IMG/VR virus record: IMGVR_UViG_2617270976_000017
Location: 1-16,721 of that record
Direction: 5' to 3' (one strand)
Length of the DNA stretch: 16,721 bases
From: a virus
Lineage: Duplodnaviria > Heunggongvirae > Uroviricota > Caudoviricetes
The position numbers and the translations under genes are program-made. Of this stretch, positions 1 through 15,523 are shown piece after piece. The notes under the pieces are model-generated. The model was given only the letters and a program-made list of their open reading frames with translations. It searched no databases and was not told the DNA's origin. Position 1 is the first letter of the stretch. The number at the start of each line of letters is the position of its first letter.

Positions 1-378
1 CCTGCTGACCATTGTCTGCATGATGTTCAGGATATGAGTACGATTAATCATCCCCGGGCTGACCTGAGCAAAGGGCAGTACGGCTGTGTCGGACAGGGCT
101 TACATATTGCCAAAAAACTGCTTCCGTATATCCCTAATAACGCGGGGATCCTGCTGGTACCATGCTGTCGTGGTGGTTCGGCATTCACCCAGGGCACGGA
201 GGGGACATTCAGCGAGTCCACGGGGGCCAGTCAGGATTCGGCTCGCTGGGGAGTGGGTAAGCCGTTATATCAGGATCTGCTTTTCCGCACGAAGGCAGCA
301 TTGCAGAAAAACCCGAAAAACGTTTTGCTGGCGATATGCTGGATGCAGGGGGAATTCGATATGACGAATGCCAGTTAG
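1..378 (+). CDS. 3' portion of a hypothetical prophage protein; reading frame is open from base 1, so probably 5'-truncated by the window edge
   Basis: Frame 1 has no stop from position 1 to TAG at 376-378; the ORF track starts it at ATG 34 only because that is the first Met. GC-rich like the phage backbone. No family recognised with confidence (a weak impression of an SGNH/esterase-like 'W-x-QGE-x-D' block, not verifiable here). Confidence 0.4.
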   Translation, partial: PADHCLHDVQDMSTINHPRADLSKGQYGCVGQGLHIAKKLLPYIPNNAGILLVPCCRGGSAFTQGTEGTFSESTGASQDSARWGVGKPLYQDLLFRTKAALQKNPKNVLLAICWMQGEFDMTNAS

Positions 379-587: not shown

Positions 588-644
588 AAATGCAGTAAAA
601 TGCAGTGCGCTATAATTCAATAACGGAGGGAGTAAGGAGAAGTC
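588..644 (+). promoter_or_regulatory. putative promoter/RBS region for the 645..1265 gene: tandem AAATGCAGT x2 (588-606), TATAAT (611-616), strong Shine-Dalgarno GGAGGG/AAGGAGA (625-640)
   Basis: Perfect -10 hexamer 29 nt upstream of ATG 645; double SD motif 5-15 nt upstream of the ATG; no convincing -35, so promoter call is weak. Confidence 0.3.
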
Positions 645-1265
645 ATGAAAGATCAAGATGTTAGGTTCGCGGTGCATCATAAGCTTTTGAAAGAATCGCA
701 TTTAGATCCAGACTGCCTTGTGGTCGATGAATTTTCCATATCCCTTGGCGCCAGTAGAGCAGACATTGCTGTAATAAATGGTGTTATACACGGGTACGAG
801 CTCAAAAGTGAATATGACTCTTTGGAGCGTTTGCCTCTTCAAATCAAGCATTATTCTTCTGTAATGGACAAGGTTACTCTTGTCGTAGCTGAGAAACACC
901 TTGAGGGAGCATTAAAGTTAATCCCAGGTTGGTGGGGCGTTAAAACGGTTTCTGTTGGGCCAAAAGGCGCCATTCTTATAAAGCACATGCGTGGAGAAAA
1001 GCTTAATCGAAACCATGACACATTGATGCTCGCTCAATTGCTTTGGAAAGATGAATGTATCGACGTACTTGAACGATGGGGCTATTCCAAAGGAATCAAA
1101 AGCAAGCCCCGATTTGAGTTATGGAATATTATTGCGGAAAATATTCCAATAGCGAATCTCAGGCTTGAAGTCAGAACAGCCTTAAAGAAACGCGTAGGCT
1201 GGAAAGTTAAGGCTTGGCAGGCTGAGTCTGCGCCAACCAATAAAGCTGTCTCACGACTAACGTAA
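645..1265 (+). CDS. hypothetical 206-aa protein with a PD-(D/E)xK-like nuclease signature (..RADIAVINGVIHGYELKSE..); accessory (moron) gene
   Basis: Long ORF with strong RBS; AT-richer than the flanking phage structural genes; Asp followed ~12 residues later by E-L-K in hydrophobic beta-strand-like context, as in restriction-endonuclease-fold proteins. Family assignment not possible without HMM search. Confidence 0.65.
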   Translation: MKDQDVRFAVHHKLLKESHLDPDCLVVDEFSISLGASRADIAVINGVIHGYELKSEYDSLERLPLQIKHYSSVMDKVTLVVAEKHLEGALKLIPGWWGVKTVSVGPKGAILIKHMRGEKLNRNHDTLMLAQLLWKDECIDVLERWGYSKGIKSKPRFELWNIIAENIPIANLRLEVRTALKKRVGWKVKAWQAESAPTNKAVSRLT

Positions 1266-2274
1266 TATGGTGCGTATGTGCAACTTTACGCCATTCTTTA
1301 GAGCCGCCAGATTTGTTAGCGCCTAATGATCTTTGGTAAATGTAATCATCCCCCCAACTAAATTTGGAGCCAAAGACTTGATACTCTGGCGAACTAACAA
1401 GGGTAGTACATAAGTTTTTAGTTTGGCCCCATCCATTTCCTTTAACTGCGGTACCTTTTACAAAGATCCATGAGGTATCGTTCGAATATCTCACTGAGAC
1501 ATACTGAGACATGAAGCGTGGGTCTACGCTCGTAATGGTAGAGCTAGCGGTGGGATAATCACTAAAACTTGGCGTTCTTCCATTGCTAAAATTCTGTACT
1601 ACGTACATCCAAAGATCGTATTCATGGCGCGGAATATGATGAACTTGATGTTGCGGTATCCCTGCCTGTGATGCCGGGTATGCGGTTGAAGATAAAATCA
1701 AGTTTCTCCACGGAGCTTGGCCTGATAATGTGTTGACCATGCTTAATGCTTGTTGTTTTAAACTATCAGTTGCGTTTTGAATATCTCCAAAATCAATGAT
1801 TACATCAATTAAACTAGGATGAATATTTAAGTGGTTAACCAGACTTGTGAATTGGTGCCATGTCTGGGGGGTGATAGATATAGCGAGCCCATTGATTAAG
1901 TTGCGTTGAACAGCATGTATATAGTTTGTTGAATATGCGGGAGAAACAACAGGGATAATTTCCTTACCATTTACTCTAGCATCTTGGATACACATATCTA
2001 GAGGATGATGGCGGCTCGAACCATGTTTATCTAAATATTTAACATCCAGCAAAACAGGACGATTGGCTTTCCAGGATGCCGCAAGGTTAATACCGAAGTC
2101 AGATAAGTAAGAACTCAAACTCTTCTTGTAGCATTCGTTTTCATAATCCCAGTCTATGTCTGGAATGGTAATGATCGGAGTAAAACCAGAGAGCGTAGTT
2201 TGATCTAAAAGCATCAGAGATTCATATTCAGCAGGCTTCCATTTCAGCTGTGGATAATATTGATGTTGACTCAT
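1207..2274 (-). CDS. hypothetical 355-aa protein, convergent to and overlapping the 3' end of 645..1265; accessory gene
   Basis: Long minus-strand ORF; ATG at 2274-2272 preceded by a perfect AAGGAG (complement of 2280-2285) with 5-nt spacing; same AT-rich composition as its neighbour. No recognisable lambda homolog. Confidence 0.65.
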   Translation of the reverse strand: MSQHQYYPQLKWKPAEYESLMLLDQTTLSGFTPIITIPDIDWDYENECYKKSLSSYLSDFGINLAASWKANRPVLLDVKYLDKHGSSRHHPLDMCIQDARVNGKEIIPVVSPAYSTNYIHAVQRNLINGLAISITPQTWHQFTSLVNHLNIHPSLIDVIIDFGDIQNATDSLKQQALSMVNTLSGQAPWRNLILSSTAYPASQAGIPQHQVHHIPRHEYDLWMYVVQNFSNGRTPSFSDYPTASSTITSVDPRFMSQYVSVRYSNDTSWIFVKGTAVKGNGWGQTKNLCTTLVSSPEYQVFGSKFSWGDDYIYQRSLGANKSGGSKEWRKVAHTHHITLVVRQLYWLAQTQPAKP

Positions 2275-2470
2275 TAAAACTCCTTAAAATCTTTACTTAT
2301 CCTAAGTATAGTGTTATGGCGTAACGCCAATTGTTTTTATACACTTGAAAACATTGGGAAAAGTTGAGCTATATCTAAATTTACAAAATTGGATGTTATA
2401 GAAATCGAGGTTTCAACTAGGCATGGAACTGCAAAATTTTTAATGCCTGCACGCGAAAGTCGTTGGCGGG

Positions 2471-2497
2471 TCCTTTCCGGTGATCCAGATCGTTACG
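2471..2497 (+). other. cosQ-like segment immediately upstream of cosN
   Basis: TCCTTTCCGGTGATCC...GTTACG matches my recollection of the last ~27 bases of the phage lambda genome (right end). Confidence 0.55.
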
Positions 2498-2509
2498 GGG
2501 CGGCGACCT
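2498..2509 (+). other. cosN: 12-nt cohesive-end sequence GGGCGGCGACCT
   Basis: Exact match to the lambda 12-nt cohesive end, followed by CTCGCGG(T)TTTTC-CTATTTATGAAAATTTT as at the lambda left end. Confidence 0.8.
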
Positions 2510-2684
2510 CGCGGTTTTTCACTATTTATGAAAATTTTTCAGGGAAAATCGTGTCGGTACTTCTCGAATATAACTTTTTGTTTTTTTTAATATTGCATTC
2601 ATAAATGTCCGACATGAAAGTGTCCGAAAATGCCTTTTTTTGGCGTTTTCATGTCGGGCCTTGTATTTGATAATGAGTTGTTCT
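2510..2684 (+). promoter_or_regulatory. cosB-like terminase binding region with three oppositely oriented core elements (TGTCGG at 2552-2557, CCGACA at 2609-2614, TGTCGG at 2652-2657) and an AT-rich segment between the first two
   Basis: Position between cosN and the Nu1 start, +/-/+ orientation and spacing (about +54, +111, +154 from cosN) mirror the lambda R3-I1-R2-R1 layout, but the element sequence differs from lambda's. Confidence 0.55.
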
Positions 2685-3233
2685 ATGAAGGTTAATAAAA
2701 AGAGGCTTGCCGAAATTTTTAACGTGGACCCGCGGACGATTGAACGCTGGCAGTCTCAGGGGCTCCCTTGCGTCTCCAAAGGCAGTAAGGGCATTGAATC
2801 TGTATTTGATACTGCCATGGCAATTCAGTGGTATGCGCAGAGGGAAACTGATATCGAAAACGAAAAGCTCCGCAAAGAACTGGCCGATTTGCGTGCGGCA
2901 GCGGAGTCAGATTTACAACCCGGCACCATTGACTATGAACGCTACCGGCTCACAAAAGCGCAGGCAGATGCGCAGGAACTGAAAAATGCCCGTGAAGACG
3001 GAGTGGTGCTGGAAACTGAACTATTTACCTTCATTCTGCAACGTGTGGCACAGGAGATTTCGGGGATACTTGTGCGTGTGCCGTTGACATTACAGCGTAA
3101 ATATCCGGACATTTCACCATCACACCTTGATGTGGTGAAAACTGAAATCGCGAAAGCCTCCAATGTTGCAGCTAAGGCCGGTGAAAACGTGGGCGGGTGG
3201 ATCGATGATTTCAGACGCACAGAAGGCAGCTAA
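2685..3233 (+). CDS. nu1: terminase small subunit (lambda Nu1 homolog)
   Basis: [12 protein letters not shown]...[12 protein letters not shown]...[49 protein letters not shown] aligns along its length with lambda gpNu1 as recalled. Start taken at ATG 2685 (the ORF track's 2640 uses an upstream TTG). Confidence 0.9.
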
Positions 3234-5133
3234 TGCAGCCGGTGCGATAGCTACAGGGCTTTTATCTCTCATTATTCCTGTTCCACTGACGACAGTTCAG
3301 TGGGCCAATAAACATTATTACCTTCCTAAAGAGTCGTCTTATACCCCGGGGCGGTGGGAAACACTGCCGTTTCAGGTTGGCATCATGAACTGTATGGGCA
3401 ACGATTTGATTCGCACTGTTAACCTGATTAAATCTGCCCGTGTTGGTTATACAAAGATGTTGCTGGGAGTGGAGGCTTATTTTATTGAGCATAAATCACG
3501 CAACAGCCTTCTTTTTCAGCCCACGGACTCAGCTGCTGAAGATTTTATGAAATCTCATGTTGAGCCAACGATAAGGGATGTTCCTGCATTGCTGGAGCTG
3601 GCTCCATGGTTCGGAAGAAAACACCGCGATAATACGCTCACCCTGAAGCGTTTTTCCTCCGGTGTGGGTTTCTGGTGTCTGGGGGGAGCGGCAGCAAAAA
3701 ACTACCGTGAAAAATCCGTGGATGTGGTTTGTTATGACGAGCTTTCCTCGTTCGAACCGGATGTTGAAAAAGAGGGTTCGCCAACCCTGCTGGGGGATAA
3801 ACGTATTGAGGGCTCTGTATGGCCAAAATCCATTCGCGGCTCGACGCCTAAAATCAAAGGCTCCTGCCAGATCGAAAAAGCCGCTAACGAGTCGGCACAT
3901 TTCATGCGTTTTTATGTGCCCTGTCCGCACTGTGGGGAGGAGCAGTATCTGAAATTTGGCGATGATGCCTCGCCTTTCGGTCTTAAGTGGGAGAAGAATA
4001 AGCCAGAAAGTGTTTTCTACCTTTGTGAGCATCATGGCTGTGTGATCCATCAGTCTGAGCTTGACCAGAGTAACGGGCGGTGGATCTGTGAAAACACGGG
4101 CATGTGGACTCGTGACGGTCTGACATTTTTCAGCGCCGCGGATAATGAAATTCCGCCGCCGCGCTCCATCACATTCCATATCTGGACGGCGTACAGTCCG
4201 TTCACCACCTGGGTACAGATTGTCTATGACTGGCTGGATGCACTGAAAGATCCCAACGGCCTGAAAACCTTTGTGAACACCACGCTGGGCGAGACCTGGG
4301 AAGAGGCCGTGGGCGAAAAACTCGATCACCAGGTGCTGATGGATAAGGTTGTGCGTTACACGGCTGCGGTGCCTTCCCGGGTGGTTTATCTGACGGCGGG
4401 CATTGACTCGCAGCGAAACCGTTTTGAGATGTATGTCTGGGGATGGGCTCCGGGAGAGGAAGCCTTTCTGGTGGATAAAATCATCATTATGGGGCGTCCC
4501 GATGAGGAAGAGACGCTGTTACGTGTGGATGTGGCGATCAACAAAAAATACCGCCATGCAGACGGAACCGAAATGACCATTTCCCGTGTCTGCTGGGACA
4601 CCGGGGGGATCGATGGCGAAATTGTCTATCAGAGGTCAAAAAAACACGGTGTTTTCCGGGTGCTGCCGGTAAAAGGTGCATCTGTTTATGGCAAGCCGGT
4701 GATCACCATGCCAAAAACCCGCAATCAGCGGGGCGTGTATCTGTGCGAAGTGGGGACGGACACCGCAAAAGAAATTCTCTATGCCCGTATGAAAGCCGAT
4801 CCCACGCCTGCGGATGAAGCCACGTCGTATGCCATCCGTTTTCCTGATGATCCGGAGATTTTTTCGCAGACAGAGGCGCAGCAACTGGTGGCGGAAGAGC
4901 TTGTGGAGAAGTGGGAAAAAGGAAAGATGCGTCTGCTGTGGGATAACAAAAAGCGGCGTAACGAAGCGCTGGACTGCCTGGTGTATGCCTACGCGGCATT
5001 ACGTGTGTCCGTGCAACGCTGGCAGCTTGATCTGGCTGTACTGGCAAAATCCCGGGAAGAAGAGACGACCCGGCCAACCCTTAAAGAACTGGCAGCGAAG
5101 CTGTCCGGAGGAGTGAATGGTTACAGTCGCTGA
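3205..5133 (+). CDS. A: terminase large subunit (lambda gpA homolog)
   Basis: Strong colinear similarity to lambda gpA ([24 protein letters not shown]..., [33 protein letters not shown]..., [10 protein letters not shown]...). Start placed at ATG 3205 (MISDAQ...), overlapping the Nu1 3' end as in lambda. Confidence 0.95.
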
Positions 5134-5323
5134 ACTGCAGGCGCTGCGTCAGGCGCGCCTTGATTTATTAACCGGTAAACGGGTGGTGTCTGTCCAGAAA
5201 GATGGTCGCAGAATTGAATATACGGCAGCTTCTCTGGATGAGCTTAACCGGGCGATCAATGATGCGGAGTCGGTACTGGGGACAACCCGCCGTCGCCGTC
5301 GTCCGCTGGGAGTGAGGTTATGA
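5117..5323 (+). CDS. W: head-tail joining / head completion protein (lambda gpW homolog, 68 aa)
   Basis: 68-aa ORF with LLTGKRVVSVQKDGRRIEYTA core matching lambda gpW; overlaps A stop and B start (ATGA) as in lambda. Confidence 0.9.
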   Translation: MVTVAELQALRQARLDLLTGKRVVSVQKDGRRIEYTAASLDELNRAINDAESVLGTTRRRRRPLGVRL

Positions 5324-7029
5324 AACGAACGCCTGTCCTGATTGATGTGAACGGCGTTCCGCTTCGGGAGAGCCTCAGCTACAACGGTGGCGGTGCAGGA
5401 TTTGGCGGGCAAATGGCAGAGTGGTTGCCACCCTCGCAGAGTGCCGATGCGGCCCTGCTGCCCGCGTTGCGTCTGGGGAATGCCCGTGCAGATGATCTGG
5501 TGCGCAATAACGGAATAGCGGCCAATGCGGTGGCCCTGCATAAGGATCACATTGTCGGGCATATGTTTCTGATTAGCTACCGTCCGAACTGGCGCTGGCT
5601 GGGGATGCGGGAGACCGCGGCAAAAAGTTTTGTCGATGAGGTGGAGGCGGCCTGGTCAGAATACGCAGAAGGGATGTTTGGTGAGATCGACGTGGAAGGG
5701 AAACGCACGTTTACGGAATTTATCCGTGAAGGTGTGTGCGTTCATGCGTTTAACGGCGAAATCTTTGTGCAGCCGGTCTGGGATACGGAGAGTACGCAAC
5801 TGTTTCGTACGCGTTTTAAAGCCGTGAGTCCGAAACGGGTGGACACGCCAGGACACGGTATCGGGAACCGTTTTCTGCGGGCCGGTGTGGAGGTTGATCG
5901 ATATGGCCGTGCCGTTGCGTACCATATCTGTGAGGATGATTTTCCTCGCTCCGGGAGTGGACGATGGGAACGGATCCCGCGTGAACTACCCACCGGGCGT
6001 CCGGCCATGCTGCATATTTTCGAGCCGGTGGAGGACGGGCAGACCCGTGGAGCCAATCAGTTTTACAGCGTTATGGAACGGCTGAAGATGCTCGATTCCC
6101 TGCAGGCAACACAGCTTCAGTCGGCCATAGTGAAGGCGATGTATGCAGCGACGATTGAAAGTGACCTTGATACCGAAAAGGCCTTTGAATATATCGCCGG
6201 TGCGCCGCAGGGGCAGAAGGATAATCCGCTTATTAATATTCTGGATAAGTTCTCCACCTGGTATGACACGAATAGCGTGACGCTGGGCGGTGTCAAAATT
6301 CCGCACCTTTTCCCCGGTGATGATCTGAAACTTCAGACCGCGCAGGATTCAGACAATGGATTTTCGGCGCTTGAACAGGCGCTGCTGCGGTATATCGCCG
6401 CCGGTCTTGGCGTTTCCTACGAACAGTTGTCCCGTGATTACTCGAAGGTCAGTTACTCAAGTGCCCGCGCATCCGCCAATGAGTCGTGGCGCTATTTTAT
6501 GGGGCGGCGAAAATTTATTGCGTCCCGGCTGGCCACGCAGATGTTTTCCTGCTGGCTGGAAGAGGCACTTCTTCGGGGGATTATTCGTCCGCCACGGGCA
6601 CGGTTTGATTTTTATCAGGCGCGATCAGCCTGGTCACGGGCTGAGTGGATTGGAGCCGGAAGAATGGCCATTGACGGGCTCAAGGAGGTTCAGGAATCAG
6701 TGATGCGCATTGAGGCCGGACTGAGCACGTATGAGAAAGAGCTGGCGCTGATGGGCGAGGATTATCAGGACATTTTCCGCCAGCAGGTCAGGGAATCTGC
6801 AGAGCGGGAAAAAGCCGGACTCTCACGTCCGGTGTGGATAGCGCAGGCGTATCAGCAGCAGATAGCGGAGAGTCGCAGGCCGGAAGAGGAGACAGTCGCG
6901 GATGAATATGACCAGCCGACGTCCGATATCACGAAGGATAAATGCAGCAAATGCCTGAGCGGCTGTAAGTTTCGCAATAACGTCGGCAACTTTGGCGGCT
7001 TCCTTTCCATTAACAAACTTTCGCAGTAA
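5320..7029 (+). CDS. B: portal protein (lambda gpB homolog) whose last codons are replaced by an in-frame fusion to the 3' end of tail gene L
   Basis: Residues 1-~525 colinear with lambda gpB (GGGAGFGGQ..., FEPVEDGQTRGANQFYSVME..., LRYIAAGLGVSYEQLSR...); the final 44 residues VADEYDQPTSDITKDKCSKCLSGCKFRNNVGNFGGFLSINKLSQ match the C-terminus of lambda gpL. Confidence 0.85.
   Translation: MKRTPVLIDVNGVPLRESLSYNGGGAGFGGQMAEWLPPSQSADAALLPALRLGNARADDLVRNNGIAANAVALHKDHIVGHMFLISYRPNWRWLGMRETAAKSFVDEVEAAWSEYAEGMFGEIDVEGKRTFTEFIREGVCVHAFNGEIFVQPVWDTESTQLFRTRFKAVSPKRVDTPGHGIGNRFLRAGVEVDRYGRAVAYHICEDDFPRSGSGRWERIPRELPTGRPAMLHIFEPVEDGQTRGANQFYSVMERLKMLDSLQATQLQSAIVKAMYAATIESDLDTEKAFEYIAGAPQGQKDNPLINILDKFSTWYDTNSVTLGGVKIPHLFPGDDLKLQTAQDSDNGFSALEQALLRYIAAGLGVSYEQLSRDYSKVSYSSARASANESWRYFMGRRKFIASRLATQMFSCWLEEALLRGIIRPPRARFDFYQARSAWSRAEWIGAGRMAIDGLKEVQESVMRIEAGLSTYEKELALMGEDYQDIFRQQVRESAEREKAGLSRPVWIAQAYQQQIAESRRPEEETVADEYDQPTSDITKDKCSKCLSGCKFRNNVGNFGGFLSINKLSQ
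6895..7029 (+). pseudogene. L: 3' remnant of tail tip gene L (last ~44 codons) fused to B
   Basis: C-terminal gpL sequence including the Cys-rich CSKCLSGC block; immediately followed by K as in lambda gene order L-K-I-J. Confidence 0.7.
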
Positions 7030-7033
7030 TCCC

Positions 7034-7777
7034 ATGACAGAGACAGAATCAGCGATTCTGGCGCACGCCCGGCGATGTGCGCCAGCGGAGTCGTGCGGCT
7101 TCGTGGTGAGAGCGCCGGAGGGGGAAAGATATTTCCCCGGCGTGAATATCTCCGGTGAGCCGGAGGATTATTTCCGTATGTCGCCGGAAGACTGGCTGCA
7201 GGCAGAAATGCAGGGTGAGATTGTGGCGCTGGTCCACAGCCACCACGGTGGTCTGCCCTGGCTGAGTGAGGCCGACCGGCGGCTGCAGGTGCAGAGTGAT
7301 TTGCCGTGGTGGCTGGTCTGCCGGGGGACGATTCACAAGTTCCGCTGTGTGCCGCATCTCACCGGGCGGCGCTTTGAGCACGGGGTGACGGACTGTTACA
7401 CGCTGTTCCGGGATGCTTATCATCTGGCGGGGATTGAGATGCCGGATTTTCATCGCGGGGATGACTGGTGGCGTCACGGTCAGAATCTCTATCTGGATAA
7501 TCTGGAAGCCACAGGGCTGTATCAGGTGCCGTTGTCATCAGCACAACCGGGCGATGTGCTGCTGTGCTGCTTTGGTTCATCGGTGCCGAATCATGCCGCC
7601 ATTTACTGTGGTGACGGCGAGCTGCTGCACCATATTCCTGAACAACTGAGCAAACGAGAGAGGTATACCGACAAATGGCAGCGACGCACACACTCCCTCT
7701 GGCGTCACCAGGCATGGCACGCATCTGCCTTTACGGGGATTTACAACGATTTGGCCGCCGCATCGATCTGCGTGTGA
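7034..7777 (+). CDS. K: tail assembly protein K (lambda gpK homolog)
   Basis: MTETESAILAHARRCAPAESCGFVV...HSHH... ORF; overlaps I by ~100 nt as K and I do in lambda. An internal Met at 7178 corresponds to the shorter classical K annotation. Confidence 0.85.
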   Translation: MTETESAILAHARRCAPAESCGFVVRAPEGERYFPGVNISGEPEDYFRMSPEDWLQAEMQGEIVALVHSHHGGLPWLSEADRRLQVQSDLPWWLVCRGTIHKFRCVPHLTGRRFEHGVTDCYTLFRDAYHLAGIEMPDFHRGDDWWRHGQNLYLDNLEATGLYQVPLSSAQPGDVLLCCFGSSVPNHAAIYCGDGELLHHIPEQLSKRERYTDKWQRRTHSLWRHQAWHASAFTGIYNDLAAASICV

Positions 7778-8316
7778 AAACGGGGGCCGAAGCCATCCGG
7801 GCGCTGGCCATGCAGATCCCGGCGTTTCGTCAGAAGCTGAGCGACGGCTGGTATCAGGTACGCATTGCCGGGCGTGATACAGGTGAAACGGAATTATCAG
7901 CCCGTCTTAATGAACCGCTGGCAAATGGTGCTGTGATCCATATCGTGCCGCGTCTGGCAGGAGCCAAAAGTGGCGGTGTGTTTCAGGCTGTGCTGGGGGC
8001 GGCTGTTATGGCGGTTGCTATATGGATGCCGGGGGTAGGAATTATGGCGAGTAATCTGCTGTTTTCTCTCGGTGCCAGTATGACGCTTGGCGGTGTTGCA
8101 CAGATGCTGGCCCCTAAACCCAAAACCCCCCGCACACAGACAACGGATAACGGCAAACAGAACACCTATTTCTCTTCACTGGATAACATGGTTGCCCAGG
8201 GCAATGTTCTGCCTGTTCTGTACGGTGAAATGCGCGTGGGGTCACGTGTGGCATCTCAGGAGATCAGCACGGCAGATGAAGGGGATGGTGGTCAGGTTGT
8301 GGTAATTGGGCGGTAA
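7675..8316 (+). CDS. I: tail assembly protein I (lambda gpI homolog)
   Basis: MAATHTLPLASPGMARICLYGDLQRFGRRIDLRVKTGAEAIRALA... and C-terminal ...NVLPVLYGEMRVGSRV.SQEISTADEGDGGQVVVIGR match lambda gpI. Confidence 0.9.
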   Translation: MAATHTLPLASPGMARICLYGDLQRFGRRIDLRVKTGAEAIRALAMQIPAFRQKLSDGWYQVRIAGRDTGETELSARLNEPLANGAVIHIVPRLAGAKSGGVFQAVLGAAVMAVAIWMPGVGIMASNLLFSLGASMTLGGVAQMLAPKPKTPRTQTTDNGKQNTYFSSLDNMVAQGNVLPVLYGEMRVGSRVASQEISTADEGDGGQVVVIGR

Positions 8317-8388
8317 TATTATTTACTCATGTTCTAACTGATTTAATATTTATATCGAACACTGATAATTATTCTATTGGTTAGCTAT

Positions 8389-8727
8389 ATGAACAAAACG
8401 ATTTTATTCTGCACGATTATTGCCTTAACAGGATGTAAATCTTTGGATTACGTAAAATCCGGAAAACCTGTAATGGAAGGTAATTCATTAAAAAATATTG
8501 ATGAATTGTCAGGCTGCATATCCAGACAATGGGCTGGTAATGGAACACCTATAACATCCCTTCCTATTGAGAATGGGGTAAGCCTTTTAGTTCCACAGGC
8601 TATGGGGGGATATGATGTTGTGCTTGATATCAAAAAAGCAGGAAATGGCAGTAGTTTTACTCTTTATGAACGTGTACCAGCATTAACGCCAAAAATTTTT
8701 GCTGATAGTGTTAATGCATGTAAATAA
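8389..8727 (+). CDS. small predicted lipoprotein (signal peptide MNKTILFCTIIALTG-C, lipobox LTGC); accessory gene inserted between I and J
   Basis: ORF with N-terminal hydrophobic segment ending in L-T-G-C; markedly AT-rich relative to flanking I and J; followed by a hairpin terminator. Start placed at ATG 8389; weak RBS. Confidence 0.6.
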   Translation: MNKTILFCTIIALTGCKSLDYVKSGKPVMEGNSLKNIDELSGCISRQWAGNGTPITSLPIENGVSLLVPQAMGGYDVVLDIKKAGNGSSFTLYERVPALTPKIFADSVNACK

Positions 8728-8750
8728 TAGTTAATCCTGCTGTAACTCAT

Positions 8751-8780
8751 GAGCCGCCTTTTGGGCGGCTTTGTTGTTTA
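8751..8780 (+). terminator. rho-independent terminator-like hairpin (GAGCCGCC-TTTT-GGGCGGCT) plus T-rich tail
   Basis: 8-bp GC-rich stem (one mismatch) with 4-nt loop followed by TTGTTGTTT, directly after the lipoprotein stop. Confidence 0.55.
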
Positions 8781-8793
8781 TGGAGTGTGAGGA

Positions 8794-10186
8794 ATGGGTA
8801 AAGGAAGCAGTAAGGGGCATACCCCGCGCGAAGCGAAGGACAACCTGAAATCCACGCAATTACTGAGTGTGATCGATGCCATCAGCGAAGGGCCGATTGA
8901 AGGTCCGGTGGATGGATTAAAAAGCGTGCTGCTGAACAGTACACCGGTGCTGGACAGTGAGGGGAATACCAACATCTCCGGTGTCACGGTGGTGTTCCGG
9001 GCAGGTGAGCAGGAGCAGACACCGCCGGAGGGATTTGAATCCTCCGGTTCCGAGACGGTGCTGGGTACGGAAGTGAAATACGACACGCCGATCACCCGGA
9101 CCATCACGTCTGCAAACATCGACCGTCTGCGCTTTACCTTCGGTGTGCAGGCTCTGGTGGAAACCACCTCAAAGGGGGACCGGAATCCGTCGGAAGTCCG
9201 CCTGCTGGTTCAGATACAACGTAACGGTGGCTGGGTGACGGAAAAAGACATCACCATTAAGGGCAAAACCACCTCGCAGTATCTGGCCTCGGTGGTGGTG
9301 GGTAACCTGCCGCCGCGCCCGTTTAATATCCGGATGCGCAGAATGACGCCGGACAGCACCACAGACCAGCTGCAGAACAAAACGCTCTGGTCGTCATACA
9401 CCGAAATCATCGATGTGAAACAGTGCTATCGGTGCCGGTATTGAGAATACGCCAGCAGGAATGCAGAGTCAGGTGCTGCTGGCGGCAGACAGGATTGCGA
9501 TGATTAATCCTGCGAATGGCAACACAAAGCCGATGTTTGTTGGTCAGGGCGATCAGATATTTATGAATGAAGTGTTCCTGAAATATCTGACGGCTCCCAC
9601 CATTACCAGCGGCGGTAATCCTCCGGCATTTTCCCTGACACCGGACGGGCGGCTGACGGCGAAAAATGCCGATATCAGCGGTAACGTGAATGCGAACTCC
9701 GGGACGCTCAACAACGTCACGATTAACGAGAACTGTCGGGTTCTGGGAAAATTGTCCGCGAACCAGATTGAAGGCGATCTCGTTAAAACAGTGGGCAAAG
9801 CTTTCCCCCGGGACTCCCGTGCACCGGAGCGGTGGCCATCAGGAACCATTACCGTCAGGGTTTATGACGATCAGCCGTTTGACCGGCAGATTGTTATTCC
9901 GGCGGTGGCATTCAGCGGCGCTAAACATGAGAAAGAGCATACTGATATTTACTCCTCATGCCGTCTGATAGTGCGGAAAAACGGTGCTGAAATTTATAAC
10001 CGTACCGCGCTGGATAATACGCTGATTTACAGTGGTGTTATTGATATGCCTGCCGGTCACGGTCACATGACACTGGAGTTTTCGGTGTCAGCATGGCTGG
10101 TAAATAACTGGTATCCCACAGCAAGTATCAGCGATTTGCTGGTTGTGGTGATGAAGAAAGCCACTGCAGGCATCACGATTAGCTGA
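8794..10186 (+). pseudogene. J: tail tip/host specificity gene J, disrupted: N-terminal ~210 codons (8794..9444) joined out of frame to the C-terminal ~240 codons (9461..10186); central ~2 kb missing
   Basis: 8794..9444 matches lambda gpJ residues 1-~212 nearly residue for residue and then stops (..VKQCYRCRY*); 9461..10186 in another frame matches the gpJ C-terminal region (..[32 protein letters not shown]..) with a divergent extreme C-terminus. Confidence 0.8.
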
Positions 10187-10204
10187 ATTTTATAACCCAG
10201 ATAC

Positions 10205-10230
10205 GGGCGCCAGAAATGGCGCCTTTTTTA
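10205..10230 (+). terminator. rho-independent terminator-like hairpin (GGGCGCC-AGAAAT-GGCGCC) followed by TTTTTTA
   Basis: 6/7-bp GC stem, 6-nt loop, T6 tract, just after the J stop. Confidence 0.55.
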
Positions 10231-10253
10231 TTGCAGAAAAGCGAGAGGTAATT

Positions 10254-10853
10254 ATGCGTAAATTATGTGCTGTTATTTTGTCCGCAGTAGTCTGGCAGGT
10301 CGCCGCTGCTACGCCAGCGAGTGCAGCAGAACATCAGTCCACGCTGAGCGCGGGGTATCTCCATGCCTCGACGAACGTTCCCGGTAGTGATGATCTGAAC
10401 GGGATTAACGTGAAATACCGTTATGAGTTTACGGACGCGCTGGGGCTGATTACGTCCTTCAGTTATGCCAATGCTGAGGATGAGCAAAAAACGCGCTACA
10501 GCGATACCCGCTGGCATGAAGATTCCGTGCGTAACCGCTGGTTCAGCGTGATGGCGGGGCCGTCTGTACGCGTGAATGAATGGTTCAGCGCGTATGCGAT
10601 GGTGGGTGTGGCTTACAGCCGTGTGTCGACTTTCTCCGGGGATTATCTCCGCGTAACTGACAACAAGGGGAAAACGCACGATGTGCTGACCGGAAGTGAT
10701 GACGGTCGCCACAGCAACACGTCTCTGGCGTGGGGGGCTGGCGTGCAGTTTAATCCGACCGAATCCGTGACCATTGACCTTGCTTATGAAGGTTCCGGTA
10801 GTGGCGACTGGCGAACGGATGCATTTATTGTTGGTATCGGATACCGTTTCTGA
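10254..10853 (+). CDS. lom: outer membrane beta-barrel protein Lom (Ail/Lom/PagC family)
   Basis: Signal-peptide-like N-terminus, alternating beta-strand pattern, C-terminal ...GIGYRF; position between J and stf as in lambda. Confidence 0.85.
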   Translation: MRKLCAVILSAVVWQVAAATPASAAEHQSTLSAGYLHASTNVPGSDDLNGINVKYRYEFTDALGLITSFSYANAEDEQKTRYSDTRWHEDSVRNRWFSVMAGPSVRVNEWFSAYAMVGVAYSRVSTFSGDYLRVTDNKGKTHDVLTGSDDGRHSNTSLAWGAGVQFNPTESVTIDLAYEGSGSGDWRTDAFIVGIGYRF

Positions 10854-10958
10854 CAACAGACGCCGATTTATCTTCTGTAAATATTGTTATGATACGCAGG
10901 TTCATCCACCTTATGGGGTGAACTGCGTTTGAGGAAACGTAAAGTTACACTGTCCTGA

Positions 10959-10990
10959 AGCCCGTGGCGTCACTGCTGCGGGCTTTTTTT
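10959..10990 (+). terminator. terminator-like stem (AGCCCG...CGGGCT) followed by T7 tract
   Basis: 6-bp stem with a long (14-nt) loop and TTTTTTT immediately downstream; loop is long, so call is weak. Confidence 0.4.
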
Positions 10991-11004
10991 ATTGGTGGAA
11001 AAGT

Positions 11005-13911
11005 ATGACAGTAAAAATTTCTGGCGTGCTTAAAGATGGCACAGGAAAACCAGTACAGAACTGCACCATTGTGCTGAAGGCCAGACGAACCAGCAGCACG
11101 GTGGTGGTGAACACGGTGGCCTCTGAAAATCCGGATGAAGCCGGACGTTACAGCATGGATGTTGAGCATGGTCAGTACAGCGTCACCCTGCTGGTTGAAG
11201 GTTTTCCGCCTTCACATGCCGGGACCATTACCGTCTATGAAGGTTCCAGACCAGGTACGCTGAATGATTTTCTCGGTGCCATGACGGAGGATGATGTCCG
11301 ACCGGAGGCACTGCGCCGCTTTGAGCAGATGGTAGAAGAGGTGTCACGTAACGCCTCCGCGGTTGCACAGAATACGGCAGCCGCGAAAAAATCAGTCAGC
11401 GATGCCAGTGCATCAGCCAGCGAGGCGGCAACTCATGCAACCGATGCTGCAGCCTCAGCACGTGCCGCCAGCACGTCAGCCGGACAGGCCGCGTCGTCGG
11501 CTCAGTCAGCGTCTTCCAGCGCAGGAACGGCATCGACAAAGGCCCGTGAAGCAGCAAAAAGTGCTGCTGCTGCAGAGTCATCAAAAAGCGCGGCAGCTAC
11601 CAGCGCCAGTGCCGCGAAAACGTCAGAAACGAATGCCGCAGCATCACAAAAATCGGCAGCCACTTCTGCATCCACAGCGACCACGAAGGCGTCAGAAGCT
11701 GCCACCTCGGCACGGGGTGCGGCGGCCTCAAAAGAGGCAGCGAAATCTTCAGAAACGAATGCATCATCAAGTGCCAGTAGTGCAGCTTCCTCGGCAACGG
11801 CGGCAGGAAATTCCGCGAAGGCGGCAAAAACGTCCGAGACGAACGCTAAGTCTTCTGAAACAGCAGCGGGACAGAGCGCCTCAGCTGCGGCAGGTTCAAA
11901 AACAGCGGCTGCATTATCTGCCAGTGCCGCGTCAACAAGTGCCGGGCAGGCCTCAGCCAGTGCCACCGCCGCCGGAAAATCGGCAGAAAGCGCCGCATCA
12001 TCCGCTTCAACAGCCACAACGAAGGCTGGCAAAGCCACTGAGCAAGCCACTGCAGCAGCGAGGTCTGCTTCTGCAGCAAAAACCTCTGAAACAAATGCAA
12101 AGACTTCAGCAGACAATGCTGCTTCCTCTAAGGCGGCAGCCGCATCGTCAGCCAGTTCAGCGGCGTCATCGGCATCATCTGCGTCTGCTTCAAAAGATGA
12201 GGCGACCAGACAAGCGTCAGCAGCGAAAGGTAGTGCCACGACAGCAACAACGAAAGCATCAGAGGCAGCTGGTAGTGCGACGGCGGCAGCTCAGAGCAAA
12301 AGTACGGCGGAATCCGCGGCAACGCGCGCCGAGACAGCAGCAAAACGGGCAGAGGATATTGCATCCGCCGTGGCGCTGGAGGATGCGAGCACGACGAAAA
12401 AGGGGATAGTACAGCTCAGCAGTGCGACCAACAGCACTTCCGAGTCACTGGCGGCAACGCCAAAAGCGGTTAAGGCGGTAATGGGTGAAACGAACAAGAA
12501 AGCGCCCTTAAATAGTCCTGCACTGACCGGAACGCCAACAACACCAACTGCGCGACAGGGAACGAATAATACCCAAATCGCAAGCACGGCTTATGTTATG
12601 GCTGCGATCGCTGCCCTCGTGGACTCGTCGCCTGACGCACTGAATACGCTGAACGAGCTGGCTGCGGCGTTGGGCAACGACCCGAATTTTGCGACCACCA
12701 TGACTAGCGCGCTTGCGGGTAAGCAACCGAAAGATGCCACCCTGACGGCGCTGGCCGGGCTTGCTACTGCGGCAGACAGGTTTCCGTATTTTACGGGGAA
12801 TGATGTTGCCAGTCTGGCAATCCTGACAAAAGTTGGGCGGGATATTCTTGCGAAATCGACCGTTGCCGCCGTTATCGAATACCTCGGTTTACAGGAAACG
12901 GTAAACAAGGCTGGTAACGCCGTTCAGCGTTCCGGCGATAAAATGACCGGAGAACTGAAAATTGGCACGGTGAATGCGCTGCGAATTTTCAATGATGCCT
13001 TCGGTCTTATTTTCCGTCGTTCAGAAGATTTTCTTCATTTCATTCCGACGGCTGAAGGACAAGGCGAAAACGGTGATATCGGCCCATTAAGGCCATTCGC
13101 TATAAATCTGAGAACAGGTGCTATATCTGTCAGCCACGGGGCCAAAATTGATGGTGGGCTGGCGCTTGGTACAGATAACGCACTGGGCGGTAATTCCATT
13201 ACTCTCGGAGATAACGACACTGGTATTAAACAGGGCGGCGACGGTGTCCTTTTATTCTATTCAAATGGACAACTGGCATTTGGGCTTCAACCCGCATCTG
13301 CTGATTTTTATAAGCGGGTTGCATATATTCATCAGGGAATAATTCCTGATGGAAGTGGCGCATTTGCAGACCAGTTGAATAATGCCACCGCGCCTTTTGT
13401 TCAGACGCAGTTTGCCTGGAATCCCACTCCTGGTGGTCATTACGTGCCGATAGTTAAGGGCTTGTCCATTCGCAATGGACAGGGCTATCCCGGCGCGGTC
13501 AGCTTTGGGTATTTACTGACAGAACAGTATGGATTTCCGGTTCCATGTATTCATATGCGTGGCGATGGAGGTAATGATGCTTTATGGTATTTTAACCCGA
13601 ACGATAAATCCTTTATTTCACCGGGTGCTCTTATTGCGGGTGGCGTCCGTTATAACACCGATGGAAATATATTTGGTGGGTGCTGGGGTTCAAACTTAAA
13701 TGATTACCTGAATAGTTCTTTTATCAGAAATGTGCGTCTGGGAGGCAGACGTTCTGACACATTATATCGCGGAGGACTTTGCGAACCAGGTAATGGTCAT
13801 GTGACAACAGGATTGCAAATTATTGGTGAGGTTGATGGAGATGACTGGATGGTGTCACGACCACTACAAAAATACATTTCTGGTAACTGGTATAACGTTG
13901 AACAGGCATAG
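11005..13911 (+). CDS. stf: side tail fibre protein (Stf family), 968 aa, with Ala/Ser-rich repetitive shaft
   Basis: N-terminus MTVKISGVLKDGTGKP.QNCTIVLKARRTSSTVV and ...YSVTLLVEGFPPSHAGTITVYE match the conserved Stf N-domain; long A/S-rich repeat region; C-terminal tip ...PLQKYISGNWYNVEQA. Confidence 0.9.
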   Translation: MTVKISGVLKDGTGKPVQNCTIVLKARRTSSTVVVNTVASENPDEAGRYSMDVEHGQYSVTLLVEGFPPSHAGTITVYEGSRPGTLNDFLGAMTEDDVRPEALRRFEQMVEEVSRNASAVAQNTAAAKKSVSDASASASEAATHATDAAASARAASTSAGQAASSAQSASSSAGTASTKAREAAKSAAAAESSKSAAATSASAAKTSETNAAASQKSAATSASTATTKASEAATSARGAAASKEAAKSSETNASSSASSAASSATAAGNSAKAAKTSETNAKSSETAAGQSASAAAGSKTAAALSASAASTSAGQASASATAAGKSAESAASSASTATTKAGKATEQATAAARSASAAKTSETNAKTSADNAASSKAAAASSASSAASSASSASASKDEATRQASAAKGSATTATTKASEAAGSATAAAQSKSTAESAATRAETAAKRAEDIASAVALEDASTTKKGIVQLSSATNSTSESLAATPKAVKAVMGETNKKAPLNSPALTGTPTTPTARQGTNNTQIASTAYVMAAIAALVDSSPDALNTLNELAAALGNDPNFATTMTSALAGKQPKDATLTALAGLATAADRFPYFTGNDVASLAILTKVGRDILAKSTVAAVIEYLGLQETVNKAGNAVQRSGDKMTGELKIGTVNALRIFNDAFGLIFRRSEDFLHFIPTAEGQGENGDIGPLRPFAINLRTGAISVSHGAKIDGGLALGTDNALGGNSITLGDNDTGIKQGGDGVLLFYSNGQLAFGLQPASADFYKRVAYIHQGIIPDGSGAFADQLNNATAPFVQTQFAWNPTPGGHYVPIVKGLSIRNGQGYPGAVSFGYLLTEQYGFPVPCIHMRGDGGNDALWYFNPNDKSFISPGALIAGGVRYNTDGNIFGGCWGSNLNDYLNSSFIRNVRLGGRRSDTLYRGGLCEPGNGHVTTGLQIIGEVDGDDWMVSRPLQKYISGNWYNVEQA
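11350..12370 (+). repeat. intragenic tandem-repeat region of stf encoding the Ala/Ser-rich shaft (recurring ..AAKTSETNA.. units)
   Basis: Repeated nucleotide blocks such as gcgaaaacgtcagaaacgaatgc / gcaaaaacgtccgagacgaacgc / gcaaaaacctctgaaacaaatgc recur at ~11615, ~11745, ~11825, ~12075. Confidence 0.6.
12872..12897 (+). other. 26-bp recombination (crossover) site of a Gin/Pin/Cin/Hin-type inversion system, inside stf
   Basis: TTATCGAATACCTCGGTTTACAGGAA closely resembles the gix/pix-type crossover sites as I recall them and is an inverted copy (22/26) of the site at 15951..15976. Confidence 0.65.
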
Positions 13912-13926: not shown

Positions 13927-14454
13927 ATGCAACATCTGAAAAATATTACCGCCGGAAACCCCAAAACCATTGAGCAGTATCAGCTTACGAAAAAAGCTGG
14001 CGTTATCTGGCTATATACAGAAGACGGTAAAAACTGGTATGACGAATTAAAAAACTTTCAGGATGATACTTTAAAAATAGCTTATGACCAGAAGGGGATT
14101 ATTCGTTGTATTGAGAAAGACGTATCAATGCTTAACCCTGACGGGTTAAGTGTTGTTGAGTTACCGAATATAACAGCCAACCGTCGCGCCGATATCTCGG
14201 GAAACTGGAAGTTTCTGGATGGTAAAGTAGTAAAGCGGGAATATACAAAACAGGAACTGCAACAGCAGGCAGAGTTACAAAAAGCCGCTTTGCTTTCCGA
14301 AGCGGAGTCTGTGATTCAACCGCTGGAACGTGCTGTCAGACTGAATATGGCAACTGATGAGGAACGCACACGACTGGAATCATGGGAACGCTACAGCGTT
14401 ATGGTCAGCCGTGTGGATACTGCAAAGCCTGAATGGCCACAGAAACCAGAATAA
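13927..14454 (+). CDS. tfa: tail fibre assembly protein (Tfa family)
   Basis: 175-aa ORF directly after stf with good RBS (CAGGAGA); N-terminal half matches the conserved Tfa pattern and is paralogous to the inverted ORF at 14485..15018. Confidence 0.85.
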
Positions 14455-14465
14455 CAACAAATTAA

Positions 14466-14485
14466 GGCCCGTACGGGCCTTTTCT
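14466..14485. terminator. bidirectional terminator hairpin (GGCCCG-TA-CGGGCC) between the convergent tfa genes
   Basis: Perfect 6-bp GC stem with T-rich flanks on both strands, located between the stop codons of the two convergent tfa genes. Confidence 0.5.
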
Positions 14486-15018
14486 TATTCTGGTGGTTCC
14501 GGGAATGTTACAGGAAGAACCGAGGTATCAGTTGTCTCAACCTGTTGCACGTATCGCATCCAGTTCATCAGTTGCTGTCTGTCTGAATCAGTGATAATCC
14601 CCAAAGTAAGCTGTGTTTGCCAGAACTGCGTTTTTTCTCTGGCCTGCTGTAATAATATTTTTTTCTGGTTTTCCGTCTGTAGGCGCAACTCTTCTTCGGT
14701 ATATACACGTTTAATGACTGCGCCATCTTTAAACATCCATTTACCTGAGTCGTCAGCACGCCGGTTGGCGGTAATATCAGGAATCTCAACGACGCTATAA
14801 CCTTCAGGGTTAAGTGTGGAGGCATCTTTGGTTATGGCAACAATAATATTATTTTCATCGTAAACAATCTTTATGGTGTCTGGCTGAAAGTTTTTCACTT
14901 CCTCATACCAGTTTTTTCCGTCCTCAGAGTAAAGCCAGATAACTCCGTGTTTCTTTGTTAACTCATACTGTTCCAGTGTTTTAGCATTACCCGCTTTTAT
15001 GTTCTTTAAGTGCATCAT
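14485..15018 (-). CDS. tfa: tail fibre assembly protein, second copy in inverted orientation (Tfa')
   Basis: [45 protein letters not shown]... is clearly paralogous to the + strand Tfa ([45 protein letters not shown]...). Confidence 0.85.
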
Positions 15019-15019
15019 A

Positions 15020-15523
15020 TTAAACGCTCGCTACATTATACCAGGTGCCATTTATATACTTTTGAACGGGTCTGTAATAAACGCCCGCTATATTATCGGC
15101 AGAGTTAGACCCTGTATCCTGAACATTAATACCAGACAATACATGACCTGAAGGGCACTGGAAATTCCATGTTTGCCAGTTGTTCACTCCATAATATTGC
15201 TGTGAACCAAGTCGAACATCTTTCACATAACGGGAATCAAAGTTACCGTAATCCGAGGGGTTAACACGCCCTGTAATATTTATGGTTTTATTACTTTGAA
15301 TGCTTCCGGAGACAAAGCGCATAACATGGACGTTATTAGCATAAACATCCAGATTACCATCGCCATTTTGTTTAAAGCCCGTGTCATTATCACCCAATAC
15401 AATCGAATTACCGCCAAGAGCACTGGATGTTCCGATACCCAGTGCACCATTCAGTTGACCACCAGATAACGGCAGTGATAGAAACAGAAGCCACTGGAGC
15501 ACCTCAAAAACACCATCATACAC
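15020..15523 (-). CDS. stf: alternative side tail fibre C-terminal (receptor-binding) segment, inverted orientation (StfE-like fragment)
   Basis: Contains ..[22 protein letters not shown].. and C-terminal ..[16 protein letters not shown], paralogous to the stf tip (..ALGGNSITLGDNDTGIKQGGDG.. / ..PLQKYISGNWYNVEQA); stop abuts tfa' start. Confidence 0.75.

What the first reader, a model, noticed from the sequence alone, without database searches (positions are those of the whole stretch)
8794..10186. J tail-tip gene carries an internal ~2-kb deletion with frameshift; surviving C-terminus is not lambda-like
The first ~210 codons match lambda gpJ almost exactly and end at a stop (9442-9444). The gpJ C-terminal region resumes in a different frame at about 9455-9461, with a scrambled junction around 9430-9460. 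The last ~150 residues diverge from lambda's LamB-binding region, implying a different receptor specificity for the ancestral phage. Whether the 241-aa C-terminal ORF is independently expressed is unknown.
Basis: partly seen in the sequence, partly recalled or inferred. Interest (0 to 1): 0.4.

Follow-up and report, generated by a model that had tools for sequence, protein, structure and literature searches.

The report
Broken phage tail-tip gene J
This is an ordinary dead gene: the tail-tip (host-recognition) gene J of a decaying lambda-like prophage in an E. coli stool isolate has lost 2,087 internal bases, one of at least three deletions that have wrecked this prophage.

Summary
Window 8700-9428 and 9427-10300 are each 100% identical to one intact J allele, E. 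coli 042 gpJ (1159 aa). They are joined so that J nucleotides 636-2722 (2,087 bp, not a multiple of 3) are missing. The junction is clean, with 2 bp of microhomology (TA, 9427-9428). There is no scrambled stretch: 9429-9460 is plain J sequence in the other frame.

The 5' ORF encodes J residues 1-212 plus RCRY-stop. The 3' ORF (9461-10186) is J residues 919-1159. The lost part holds the hub domain, both Ig-like domains and the start of the central fibre.

The same prophage, at the yehV site of E. coli 2-316-03_S4_C2, has two more microhomology deletions: a portal-to-L fusion of 9.8 kb, and loss of the lysis cassette (about 3.0 kb).

The receptor-binding domain belongs to the lambda J family (full-length Pfam hit) but is only about 41% identical to lambda's. 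It is 100% identical to the phage VT1-Sakai J C-terminus and 60% identical to the OmpC-binding A8 gpJ. A non-LamB receptor is therefore plausible but unproven.

The junction occurs in no other genome searched. This is routine prophage decay and of low interest.

The parts
8794..9428 (+). J 5' remnant: J nt 1-635 (codons 1-211 and the first two bases of codon 212). It contains the FNIII-A domain.
   Evidence: 100% identical to E. coli 042 gpJ (L001 6035-6669). 210/212 aa identical to lambda J. Pfam FNIII-A_GpJ hit at residues 86-207.
8794..9444 (+). Truncated ORF of 216 aa: J residues 1-212 followed by the out-of-frame residues RCRY and TGA (9442-9444).
   Evidence: Deposited as KDY15904.1 'putative host specificity protein J' and found on a single assembly.
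9427..9428 (+). Deletion junction. The 2-bp microhomology 'TA' is shared by both parental breakpoints. 2,087 bp (J nt 636-2722) are missing here.
   Evidence: Three-way alignment of the window with the left and right parental sequences of E. coli 042. BLAST segments end at 9428 and begin at 9427.
9429..10186 (+). J 3' remnant: J nt 2723-3480. It covers the distal part of the central tail fibre and the C-terminal receptor-binding domain, in a frame shifted relative to the 5' remnant.
   Evidence: 100% identical to E. coli 042 gpJ and to the phage VT1-Sakai J C-terminus. Pfam Phage_Tail_Tip (profile 48-138 of 139) and Ig_GpJ_C (profile 1-135 of 135).
9461..10186 (+). Open reading frame of 241 aa (J residues 919-1159) starting at the first in-frame ATG. 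Probably not a gene in its own right.
   Evidence: There is no sigma-70-like promoter on the + strand in 8300-10300. The only Shine-Dalgarno-like AGGA (9457-9460) abuts the ATG with no spacer (read).
10205..10224 (+). Terminator-like hairpin followed by a T-run, just after the J stop codon and before lom.
6893..6894 (+). Second deletion junction in the same prophage. The portal gene is fused to the 3' end of tail gene L. 9,835 bp are missing (C/Nu3, D, E, FI, FII, Z, U, V, G, T, H, M and most of L). 2-bp microhomology 'CA'.
   Evidence: An independent Logan assembly of SRR1186598 reproduces window 3795-7396 exactly.
372..377 (+). Third deletion junction. About 3.0 kb is missing relative to the related prophage of strain E100341: the 3' part of the esterase gene, holin, YdfR, lysozyme and Rz-like lysis gene. 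Up to 6 bp of overlap.

Best explanation
The region is a pseudogene of the lambdoid tail-tip/host-specificity gene J. It was made by one recent illegitimate-recombination deletion of 2,087 bp between two sites that share only 2 bp.

The deletion removes residues 213-907: the Phage-tail_3 hub domain, both Ig/FNIII-like domains and the start of the central fibre. It also shifts the frame, so translation from the J start ends after 216 codons.

Neither fragment can build a tail tip, and the prophage could not use one anyway. It has also lost its head genes, most tail genes and its lysis cassette through two further microhomology deletions.

The 241-codon downstream ORF is a by-product of the frameshift and most likely has no function of its own. 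At most it could be translated weakly by reinitiation 16 nt after the upstream stop, whenever the late operon is transcribed.

The ancestral phage carried a J receptor-binding domain of the type found in VT1-Sakai and the PPompW-type prophages, not the lambda LamB type. Its receptor is inferred to be a porin other than LamB, possibly OmpC.

Shown: the breakpoints, the frame, the parent allele, the lost domains, the other deletions and the rarity of the junction. Inferred: that the deletion is real rather than an assembly artefact, that the fragments are not expressed or functional, and the receptor.
For: - Both flanks are 100% identical to one intact allele (E. coli 042 gpJ), with a 2,087-bp gap and a TA microhomology.
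- There are no substitutions against the 042 prophage from window 8209 to 11250 other than the gap, so the deletion is recent.
- The intact allele has six domains; the window keeps only FNIII-A, a partial Phage_Tail_Tip and Ig_GpJ_C.
- Two more deletions with 2-bp and 6-bp microhomology lie in the same prophage. One is reproduced by an independent Logan assembly.
- The junction is absent from 5,426 complete E. coli genomes, from GTDB species representatives and from viral and metagenome contigs. The truncated protein occurs in one assembly only.
- Other closed E. coli genomes carry different J pseudogenes, and VT1-Sakai's own J is annotated as split by a mutation.
- There is no promoter-like site and only a poor ribosome-binding context for the 241-aa ORF.
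- RBD identities: 41% to lambda, 60% to OmpC-binding A8 gpJ, 100% to VT1-Sakai.
Against: - The source is a draft assembly (JNQT01000033.1), and the J junction itself is not seen in the independent Logan assembly by exact-protein look-up. Raw-read support was not examined.
- Non-expression of the fragments is inferred from sequence context only. The stop at 9442-9444 lies 16 nt upstream of the ATG at 9461, so termination-reinitiation cannot be excluded.
- Whether the late promoter and Q antiterminator survive is unknown, because the contig starts inside the prophage.
Confidence: 0.86

Rival explanations
1. Assembly artefact. The strain has an intact J gene here, and the contig wrongly joins the J 5' and 3' parts because J sequences are repeated among several lambdoid prophages in the genome.
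For: - The source is a draft assembly.
- J 5' sequences are present several times per E. coli genome: median 3 places, up to 17.
- The junction is found in no other genome or collection.
- Exact-protein look-ups of the fragment ORFs found them only in the NCBI assembly, with no Logan contig.
Against: - Repeat-driven misjoins occur at long shared sequence and keep colinearity. Here the breakpoints share only 2 bp.
- Both flanks belong to the same allele.
- Two other deletions with the same signature lie in the same prophage, and one is reproduced by an independent assembly of the reads.
- The Logan look-ups would miss the junction if its contig ended inside the fragment ORFs; whether that is so was not examined. 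The one Logan contig recovered from this prophage is only 3.6 kb.
Confidence: 0.09
2. The C-terminal 241-aa fragment (central-fibre segment plus receptor-binding domain) is expressed and retained because it does something. It might act as a trigger or decoy for J-sensing abortive-infection systems such as HepS, or interfere with incoming phages.
For: - The ORF is intact, and its ATG lies 16 nt after the upstream stop.
- It retains the equivalent of lambda J 902-933, including the F924 position (QIFMN). That 32-residue peptide is sufficient to activate HepS (PMC13043305; alignment).
Against: - The flanks show no substitutions against the intact allele, so there has been no time for selection to act.
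- The deletion is private to one strain.
- There is no promoter-like site and the SD spacing is poor.
- There is no PADLOC hit.
- An intact ORF is what one expects by default for the undisturbed 3' end of a recently broken gene.
Confidence: 0.03
3. The two J pieces come from two different prophages, joined by recombination between J genes, rather than from a simple intragenic deletion.
For: Lambdoid prophages are mosaic. Identity to the 042 prophage changes from about 96% to 100% at window ~8209.
Against: - Both pieces, plus 1.2 kb to the left and 1.8 kb to the right, are identical to one contiguous stretch of the 042 prophage.
- Homologous exchange between J genes would keep register, not remove 2,087 bp at a 2-bp overlap.
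Confidence: 0.02

Closest known systems
E. coli 042 prophage gpJ (WP_000515468.1, 1159 aa; NC_017626.1 1440604-1444083)
   Same: Identical nucleotide sequence on both sides of the junction, with the same neighbours (a small ORF of unknown function upstream, lom and stf downstream).
   Different: The 042 gene is intact. The window lacks nt 636-2722 and is frameshifted. The 042 prophage sits at the ompW/trp locus, whereas this one is at yehV.
Phage lambda J (NP_040600.1 / P03749), the LamB-binding tail-tip protein
   Same: Residues 1-212 are 99% identical. The family and domain order are the same. The C-terminal domain hits the same Pfam family (Ig_GpJ_C).
   Different: The parent allele is 27 residues longer, owing to 29 gap positions in the alignment within the divergent stretch from about residue 820 to 900. 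The last 131-150 residues are only 40-41% identical. The lambda gene is functional.
J of VT1-Sakai (Sp15) Stx1 prophage, also integrated at yehV
   Same: The C-terminal 874 bp (J 3' end plus the start of lom) are 100% identical. The integration site is the same (dinI, yehV', yehU, yehT). Its J is also a pseudogene, annotated 'truncated protein by a mutation'.
   Different: Sakai's J is split by a frameshift without a large deletion. Its 5' part is only about 78% identical to the window at the DNA level.
A8 gpJ chimera (PDB 9wca/9wcb; Nature 2024, PMC11338833), an OmpC-binding J receptor-binding domain
   Same: It is the best solved-structure match to the 241-aa ORF (E 5.5e-102). The RBD is 60% identical, against 41% for lambda.
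   Different: It is not the same RBD type, and the receptor of the window's type has not been determined.
ECB_00512, the J relic of E. coli REL606
   Same: It is a J remnant in a defunct prophage. It was shown to donate about 1.3 kb to infecting lambda by recombination, doubling phage fitness (bioRxiv 10.1101/2020.11.02.365361).
   Different: Its sequence was not compared here. No such exchange is documented for the window's remnant.

Membership tests
Lambda gpJ / TipJ tail-tip attachment protein (functional member) | One continuous ORF of about 1,130-1,160 aa | tested here: not met
   The gene is split into a 216-aa and a 241-aa ORF in different frames, and 2,087 bp are missing.
Lambda gpJ / TipJ tail-tip attachment protein (functional member) | N-terminal region with the FNIII-A domain (PF24801) | tested here: met
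   Residues 86-207, E 3.7e-42. 99% identical to lambda J residues 1-212.
Lambda gpJ / TipJ tail-tip attachment protein (functional member) | Hub domain Phage-tail_3 (PF13550) and the two Ig-like domains Ig_J and Ig_J_second | tested here: not met
   They are present in the intact 042 allele at 330-498, 610-714 and 716-818. They are absent from both window ORFs.
Lambda gpJ / TipJ tail-tip attachment protein (functional member) | Complete central tail fibre domain (PF09327) | tested here: not met
   Only profile positions 48-138 of 139 remain. The intact allele matches positions 1-138.
Lambda gpJ / TipJ tail-tip attachment protein (functional member) | C-terminal receptor-binding domain (PF12421 Ig_GpJ_C) | tested here: met
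   Profile 1-135 of 135, E 3.6e-38, in the 241-aa ORF.
LamB-specific (lambda-type) J receptor-binding domain | High sequence identity to lambda J residues ~990-1132 | tested here: not met
   40-41% identity over the last 131-150 residues.
LamB-specific (lambda-type) J receptor-binding domain | Adsorption that depends on LamB | not testable with these tools
   This needs adsorption or plating assays with a chimeric phage on lamB and ompC mutants.
OmpC-specific J receptor-binding domains (A8 gpJ type) | Close sequence similarity to an RBD shown experimentally to use OmpC | tested here: inconclusive
   60% identity (76 of 127) to the A8 gpJ RBD. J receptor choice can change with few mutations, as in phage 21 (PMC11336670), so 60% does not settle it.
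Defective (cryptic) lambdoid prophage | Loss of genes essential for particle formation and lysis, while remaining integrated at a known attachment site | tested here: met
   Portal-L fusion missing 9.8 kb of head and tail genes. Lysis cassette missing. J broken. dinI, yehV', yehU and yehT lie downstream, as in VT1-Sakai.

The most novel reading that the evidence does not exclude
The 241-aa C-terminal J fragment is translated, for example by reinitiation 16 nt after the upstream stop, and matters biologically in one of two ways. It could be a constitutive source of the J central-fibre peptide (the equivalent of lambda J 902-933, with F924 conserved) that J-sensing abortive-infection nucleases such as HepS recognise. 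Or its intact receptor-binding module, flanked by conserved J and lom sequence, could serve as a ready donor that lets incoming lambdoid phages switch receptor by recombination.
Probability: 0.04. Interest if true: 0.4.

Novelty: already known. Interest (0 to 1): 0.08.

Why it matters
It matters little beyond correct annotation. The two ORFs should be annotated as one J pseudogene, and the prophage as defective (three deletions).

The region is a clean worked example of prophage decay by short-microhomology deletions. Each breakpoint can be fixed to the base because an intact, identical allele exists elsewhere.

Two minor points of wider use follow. The surviving receptor-binding module is of the common VT1-Sakai/PPompW type, for which no receptor was found in the literature searched. 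J relics of this kind are known to be able to donate sequence to infecting lambda.

Tried and rejected
- Scrambled junction: rejected. 9429-9460 is colinear and identical to J nt 2723-2754.
- Longer repeats at the breakpoints that could explain the deletion or a misassembly: only 'TA' is shared.
- Same junction elsewhere: not found in complete E. coli genomes, phage records, GTDB representatives, IMG/VR contigs or JGI metagenomes. The exact proteins occur only in this assembly.
- Independent confirmation of the J junction from Logan: not obtained. Only the portal-L junction was confirmed.
- Receptor assignment from the literature:
  - Sequences of the OmpC-binding gpJ variants A8 and 1A2 were not retrievable from the supplements of PMC11338833. 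A8 was recovered through the PDB instead.
  - The papers on EHEC phages (PMC12502783) and on the PhiR phages (PMC13190303) give no receptor for this RBD type.
- Defence-system role for the J fragments: no PADLOC hit.
- Internal promoter for the 241-aa ORF: none on the + strand.

Full report
**Where the window comes from**

The truncated J protein was looked up by exact sequence. This placed the window at positions 3-16723 of contig JNQT01000033.1 (53 kb) of the draft genome of E. coli 2-316-03_S4_C2, GCA_000704325.1. In the deposited record the 216-aa product is KDY15904.1, 'putative host specificity protein J'.

Downstream of the window the contig continues with dinI, a yehV remnant, yehU and yehT. 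This is the arrangement at the right end of the Stx1 prophage VT1-Sakai. The element is therefore a lambdoid prophage integrated at the yehV site.

**The observation**

ORFs 8794-9444 (216 aa) and 9461-10186 (241 aa) exist as described. The first 212 residues of the upstream ORF are 210/212 identical to lambda J.

Megablast against 5,426 complete E. coli genomes showed two things. Window 8760-9428 is 100% identical to the 5' end of the gpJ gene of E. coli 042. Window 9427-10300 is 100% identical to J 3' ends found in many strains and in VT1-Sakai.

I aligned the window directly to the 042 locus:
- Window 8700-9428 equals L001 5941-6669.
- Window 9427-10300 equals L001 8755-9628.
- Both segments have no mismatch.

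One intact allele (WP_000515468.1, 1159 aa) therefore explains both pieces.

**The breakpoint**

The three-way alignment at the breakpoint shows the left parent ...CAGTGCTA|CCCGAAC and the right parent ...GCGGGTA|TCGGTGCC. The window reads ...CAGTGCTATCGGTGCC.

- The only shared bases are TA (window 9427-9428).
- J nt 636-2722 are missing: 2,087 bp, which leaves a remainder of 2 on division by 3.
- Tyr212 is preserved (TAC becomes TAT). Four out-of-frame codons (RCRY) follow, then TGA at 9442-9444.
- J sequence resumes at 9429, in the frame of the downstream ORF. Its first in-frame ATG is at 9461 (J residue 919).

That stretch is ordinary J sequence read in the other frame.

**What was lost**

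Pfam domains on the intact 042 protein:

| Domain | Residues |
|---|---|
| FNIII-A | 86-207 |
| Phage-tail_3 (hub) | 330-498 |
| Ig_J | 610-714 |
| Ig_J_second | 716-818 |
| Phage_Tail_Tip (central fibre) | 872-1000 |
| Ig_GpJ_C (receptor-binding domain) | 1029-1159 |

The window keeps FNIII-A in the first ORF. In the second ORF it keeps Phage_Tail_Tip profile positions 48-138 and a complete Ig_GpJ_C. Residues 213-907 are gone. Neither fragment can form a tail tip.

**Context: a prophage in decay**

I aligned the whole window to the intact 042 prophage and to the related prophage of strain E100341. This revealed two more deletions.

- *Portal to L, at window 6893/6894.* The portal gene runs straight into the last ~45 codons of tail gene L. 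The 569-aa ORF hits both Phage_portal_2 and Phage_tail_L. 9,835 bp are missing: protease/scaffold, D, E, FI, FII, Z, U, V, G, T, H, M and most of L. The breakpoints share 2 bp (CA). A Logan assembly made independently from run SRR1186598 contains a 3.6-kb contig identical to window 3795-7396, which spans this junction.
- *Lysis cassette, at window 372-377.* About 3.0 kb is missing: the 3' part of the esterase gene, holin, YdfR, lysozyme and the Rz-like gene. The overlap is up to 6 bp.

So the prophage cannot lyse, cannot build heads or tails, and has a broken J.

**Age and rarity**

Apart from the gap, the window has no substitution against the 042 prophage from 8209 to 11250. Further left, identity is about 96%. 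The deletion is therefore recent relative to allelic divergence, and sequence conservation of the fragments says nothing about selection.

The junction was not found in:
- any complete E. coli genome (no place covered at least 80% of the query);
- phage records;
- GTDB species representatives;
- IMG/VR contigs;
- JGI metagenomes.

The exact fragment proteins occur in this one assembly only.

Different J pseudogenes are easy to find in closed genomes. Examples are O157:H16 98-3133 and strain 1916D18. VT1-Sakai's own J is annotated as truncated by a mutation. J breakage is a routine form of prophage decay.

**Real deletion or assembly error?**

I could not inspect reads. Three points argue against an artefact:
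- A misjoin through repeated J sequence would occur at long shared sequence and keep register, whereas here only 2 bp are shared.
- Both flanks belong to one allele.
- The same prophage has two other deletions with the same signature, one independently reproduced.

I put the artefact at about 9%.

**Is the 241-aa ORF a gene?**

- The scan found no sigma-70-like promoter on the + strand between 8300 and 10300.
- The only Shine-Dalgarno-like element, AGGA at 9457-9460, abuts the ATG with no spacer.
- The gene caller's alternative start is the GTG at 9473, which lies 12 nt beyond that AGGA.
- The upstream stop lies 16 nt before the ATG. Weak reinitiation during late transcription cannot be excluded, but this is inference.
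- There is no PADLOC hit.

An intact reading frame is the default state of the undisturbed 3' end of a recently broken gene.

**The C-terminus and receptor**

- The parent allele is 92-100% identical to lambda J in 50-residue windows up to residue 800.
- It then diverges: 26-60% identity for residues 801-950, with 29 gap positions in the alignment.
- It is again 92% identical for residues 951-1000.
- It is 32-54% identical from residue 1001 to 1150.
- The last 131-150 residues are 40-41% identical to lambda.

The domain is nonetheless a full-length Ig_GpJ_C member.

- It is 100% identical to the J C-terminus of VT1-Sakai, the PPompW prophages and phage vB_EcoS-783R2.
- It is 98-99% identical to several Stx1a/Stx2a phages and to phage PhiR5_1.

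The closest solved structure is 'A8 gpJ' (PDB 9wca/9wcb), with E 5.5e-102, against 1e-79 to 2e-80 for lambda J. A8 is a chimeric lambda J whose natural C-terminal portion uses OmpC instead of LamB (PMC11338833). Identity to A8 in the RBD is 60%, 76 of 127.

A receptor other than LamB is therefore plausible, and OmpC is the best guess. J receptor use can shift with few mutations, as in phage 21 (PMC11336670), and I found no experiment on this exact RBD type.

**Side observations with possible relevance**

- The 241-aa ORF retains the equivalent of lambda J 902-933, including the F924 position (...GDQIFMNEV...). That 32-residue peptide is sufficient to activate the prophage-encoded anticodon nuclease HepS (PMC13043305).
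- A J relic in E. coli REL606 was shown to donate about 1.3 kb to infecting lambda, doubling its fitness (bioRxiv 10.1101/2020.11.02.365361).

Either effect could give a J remnant some consequence. Nothing in this window indicates that either applies here.

**Verdict**

The finding is real and correctly interpreted in outline. It needs corrected coordinates: junction at 9427-9428, 2,087 bp missing, no scrambling. It is an ordinary, strain-private pseudogene in a multiply deleted prophage.

Noticed in passing
window 5320-7029 (junction 6893-6894): The 569-aa 'portal' ORF is an in-frame fusion of the portal gene to the last ~45 codons of tail gene L. A 9,835-bp deletion with 2-bp microhomology (CA) created it and removed all head-shell genes and most tail genes. 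An independent Logan assembly (SRR1186598) reproduces it.
   Followed up: yes
window 1-378 (junction 372-377): The SASA/DUF6645 esterase gene is cut short, and the holin, YdfR, lysozyme and Rz-like genes present in the related E100341 prophage are missing. The deletion is about 3.0 kb with up to 6 bp of overlap.
   Followed up: partly
window 645-1265 (+) and 1207-2274 (-): A convergent, overlapping gene pair sits between the lysis region and cos/Nu1. One gene is a 'sce7726 family' protein; the other is a Beta_protein (PF14350). They hit the PADLOC models 'cII', 'beta' and PD-Lambda-2_C, which suggests an intact anti-phage defence cargo in this otherwise decayed prophage. The same pair is present in E100341.
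   Followed up: partly
window 8377-8727 (+), hairpin 8751-8771: A small ORF of unknown function (phrog_914, no Pfam hit) lies between tail genes I and J, where lambda has no gene. A terminator-like hairpin follows it just upstream of the J start, so it looks like a moron. It is also present in the E. coli 042 prophage.
   Followed up: partly
window 13927-15523: The tail-fibre assembly gene (13927-14454, +) faces an inverted second tfa (14485-15018, -) and an inverted tail-fibre C-terminal segment (15020-15523, -). This is the layout of a Pin/Gin-type invertible host-range cassette. In the related E100341 prophage the adjacent recombinase is annotated as a fragment.
   Followed up: no
window 8209-11250: This block is identical to the E. 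coli 042 ompW-site prophage apart from the J deletion. The K/I region to its left is only about 96% identical, which marks a mosaic boundary near 8209.
   Followed up: yes
window 9494-9589 (J residues equivalent to lambda 902-933): The surviving ORF keeps the central-fibre peptide, with F924 conserved, that was reported to trigger the HepS abortive-infection nuclease.
   Followed up: partly
L002 3288-6760 (VT1-Sakai): The J gene of the Stx1 prophage VT1-Sakai, at the same yehV site and with an identical J 3' end, is itself annotated as two overlapping ORFs 'truncated by a mutation'.
   Followed up: no
L009 10213-10627 (E. coli E100341): A sister prophage at the ompW locus carries a different large deletion that joins the 5' end of terminase A directly to the 3' end of lom. 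This is independent decay of the same phage type.
   Followed up: partly
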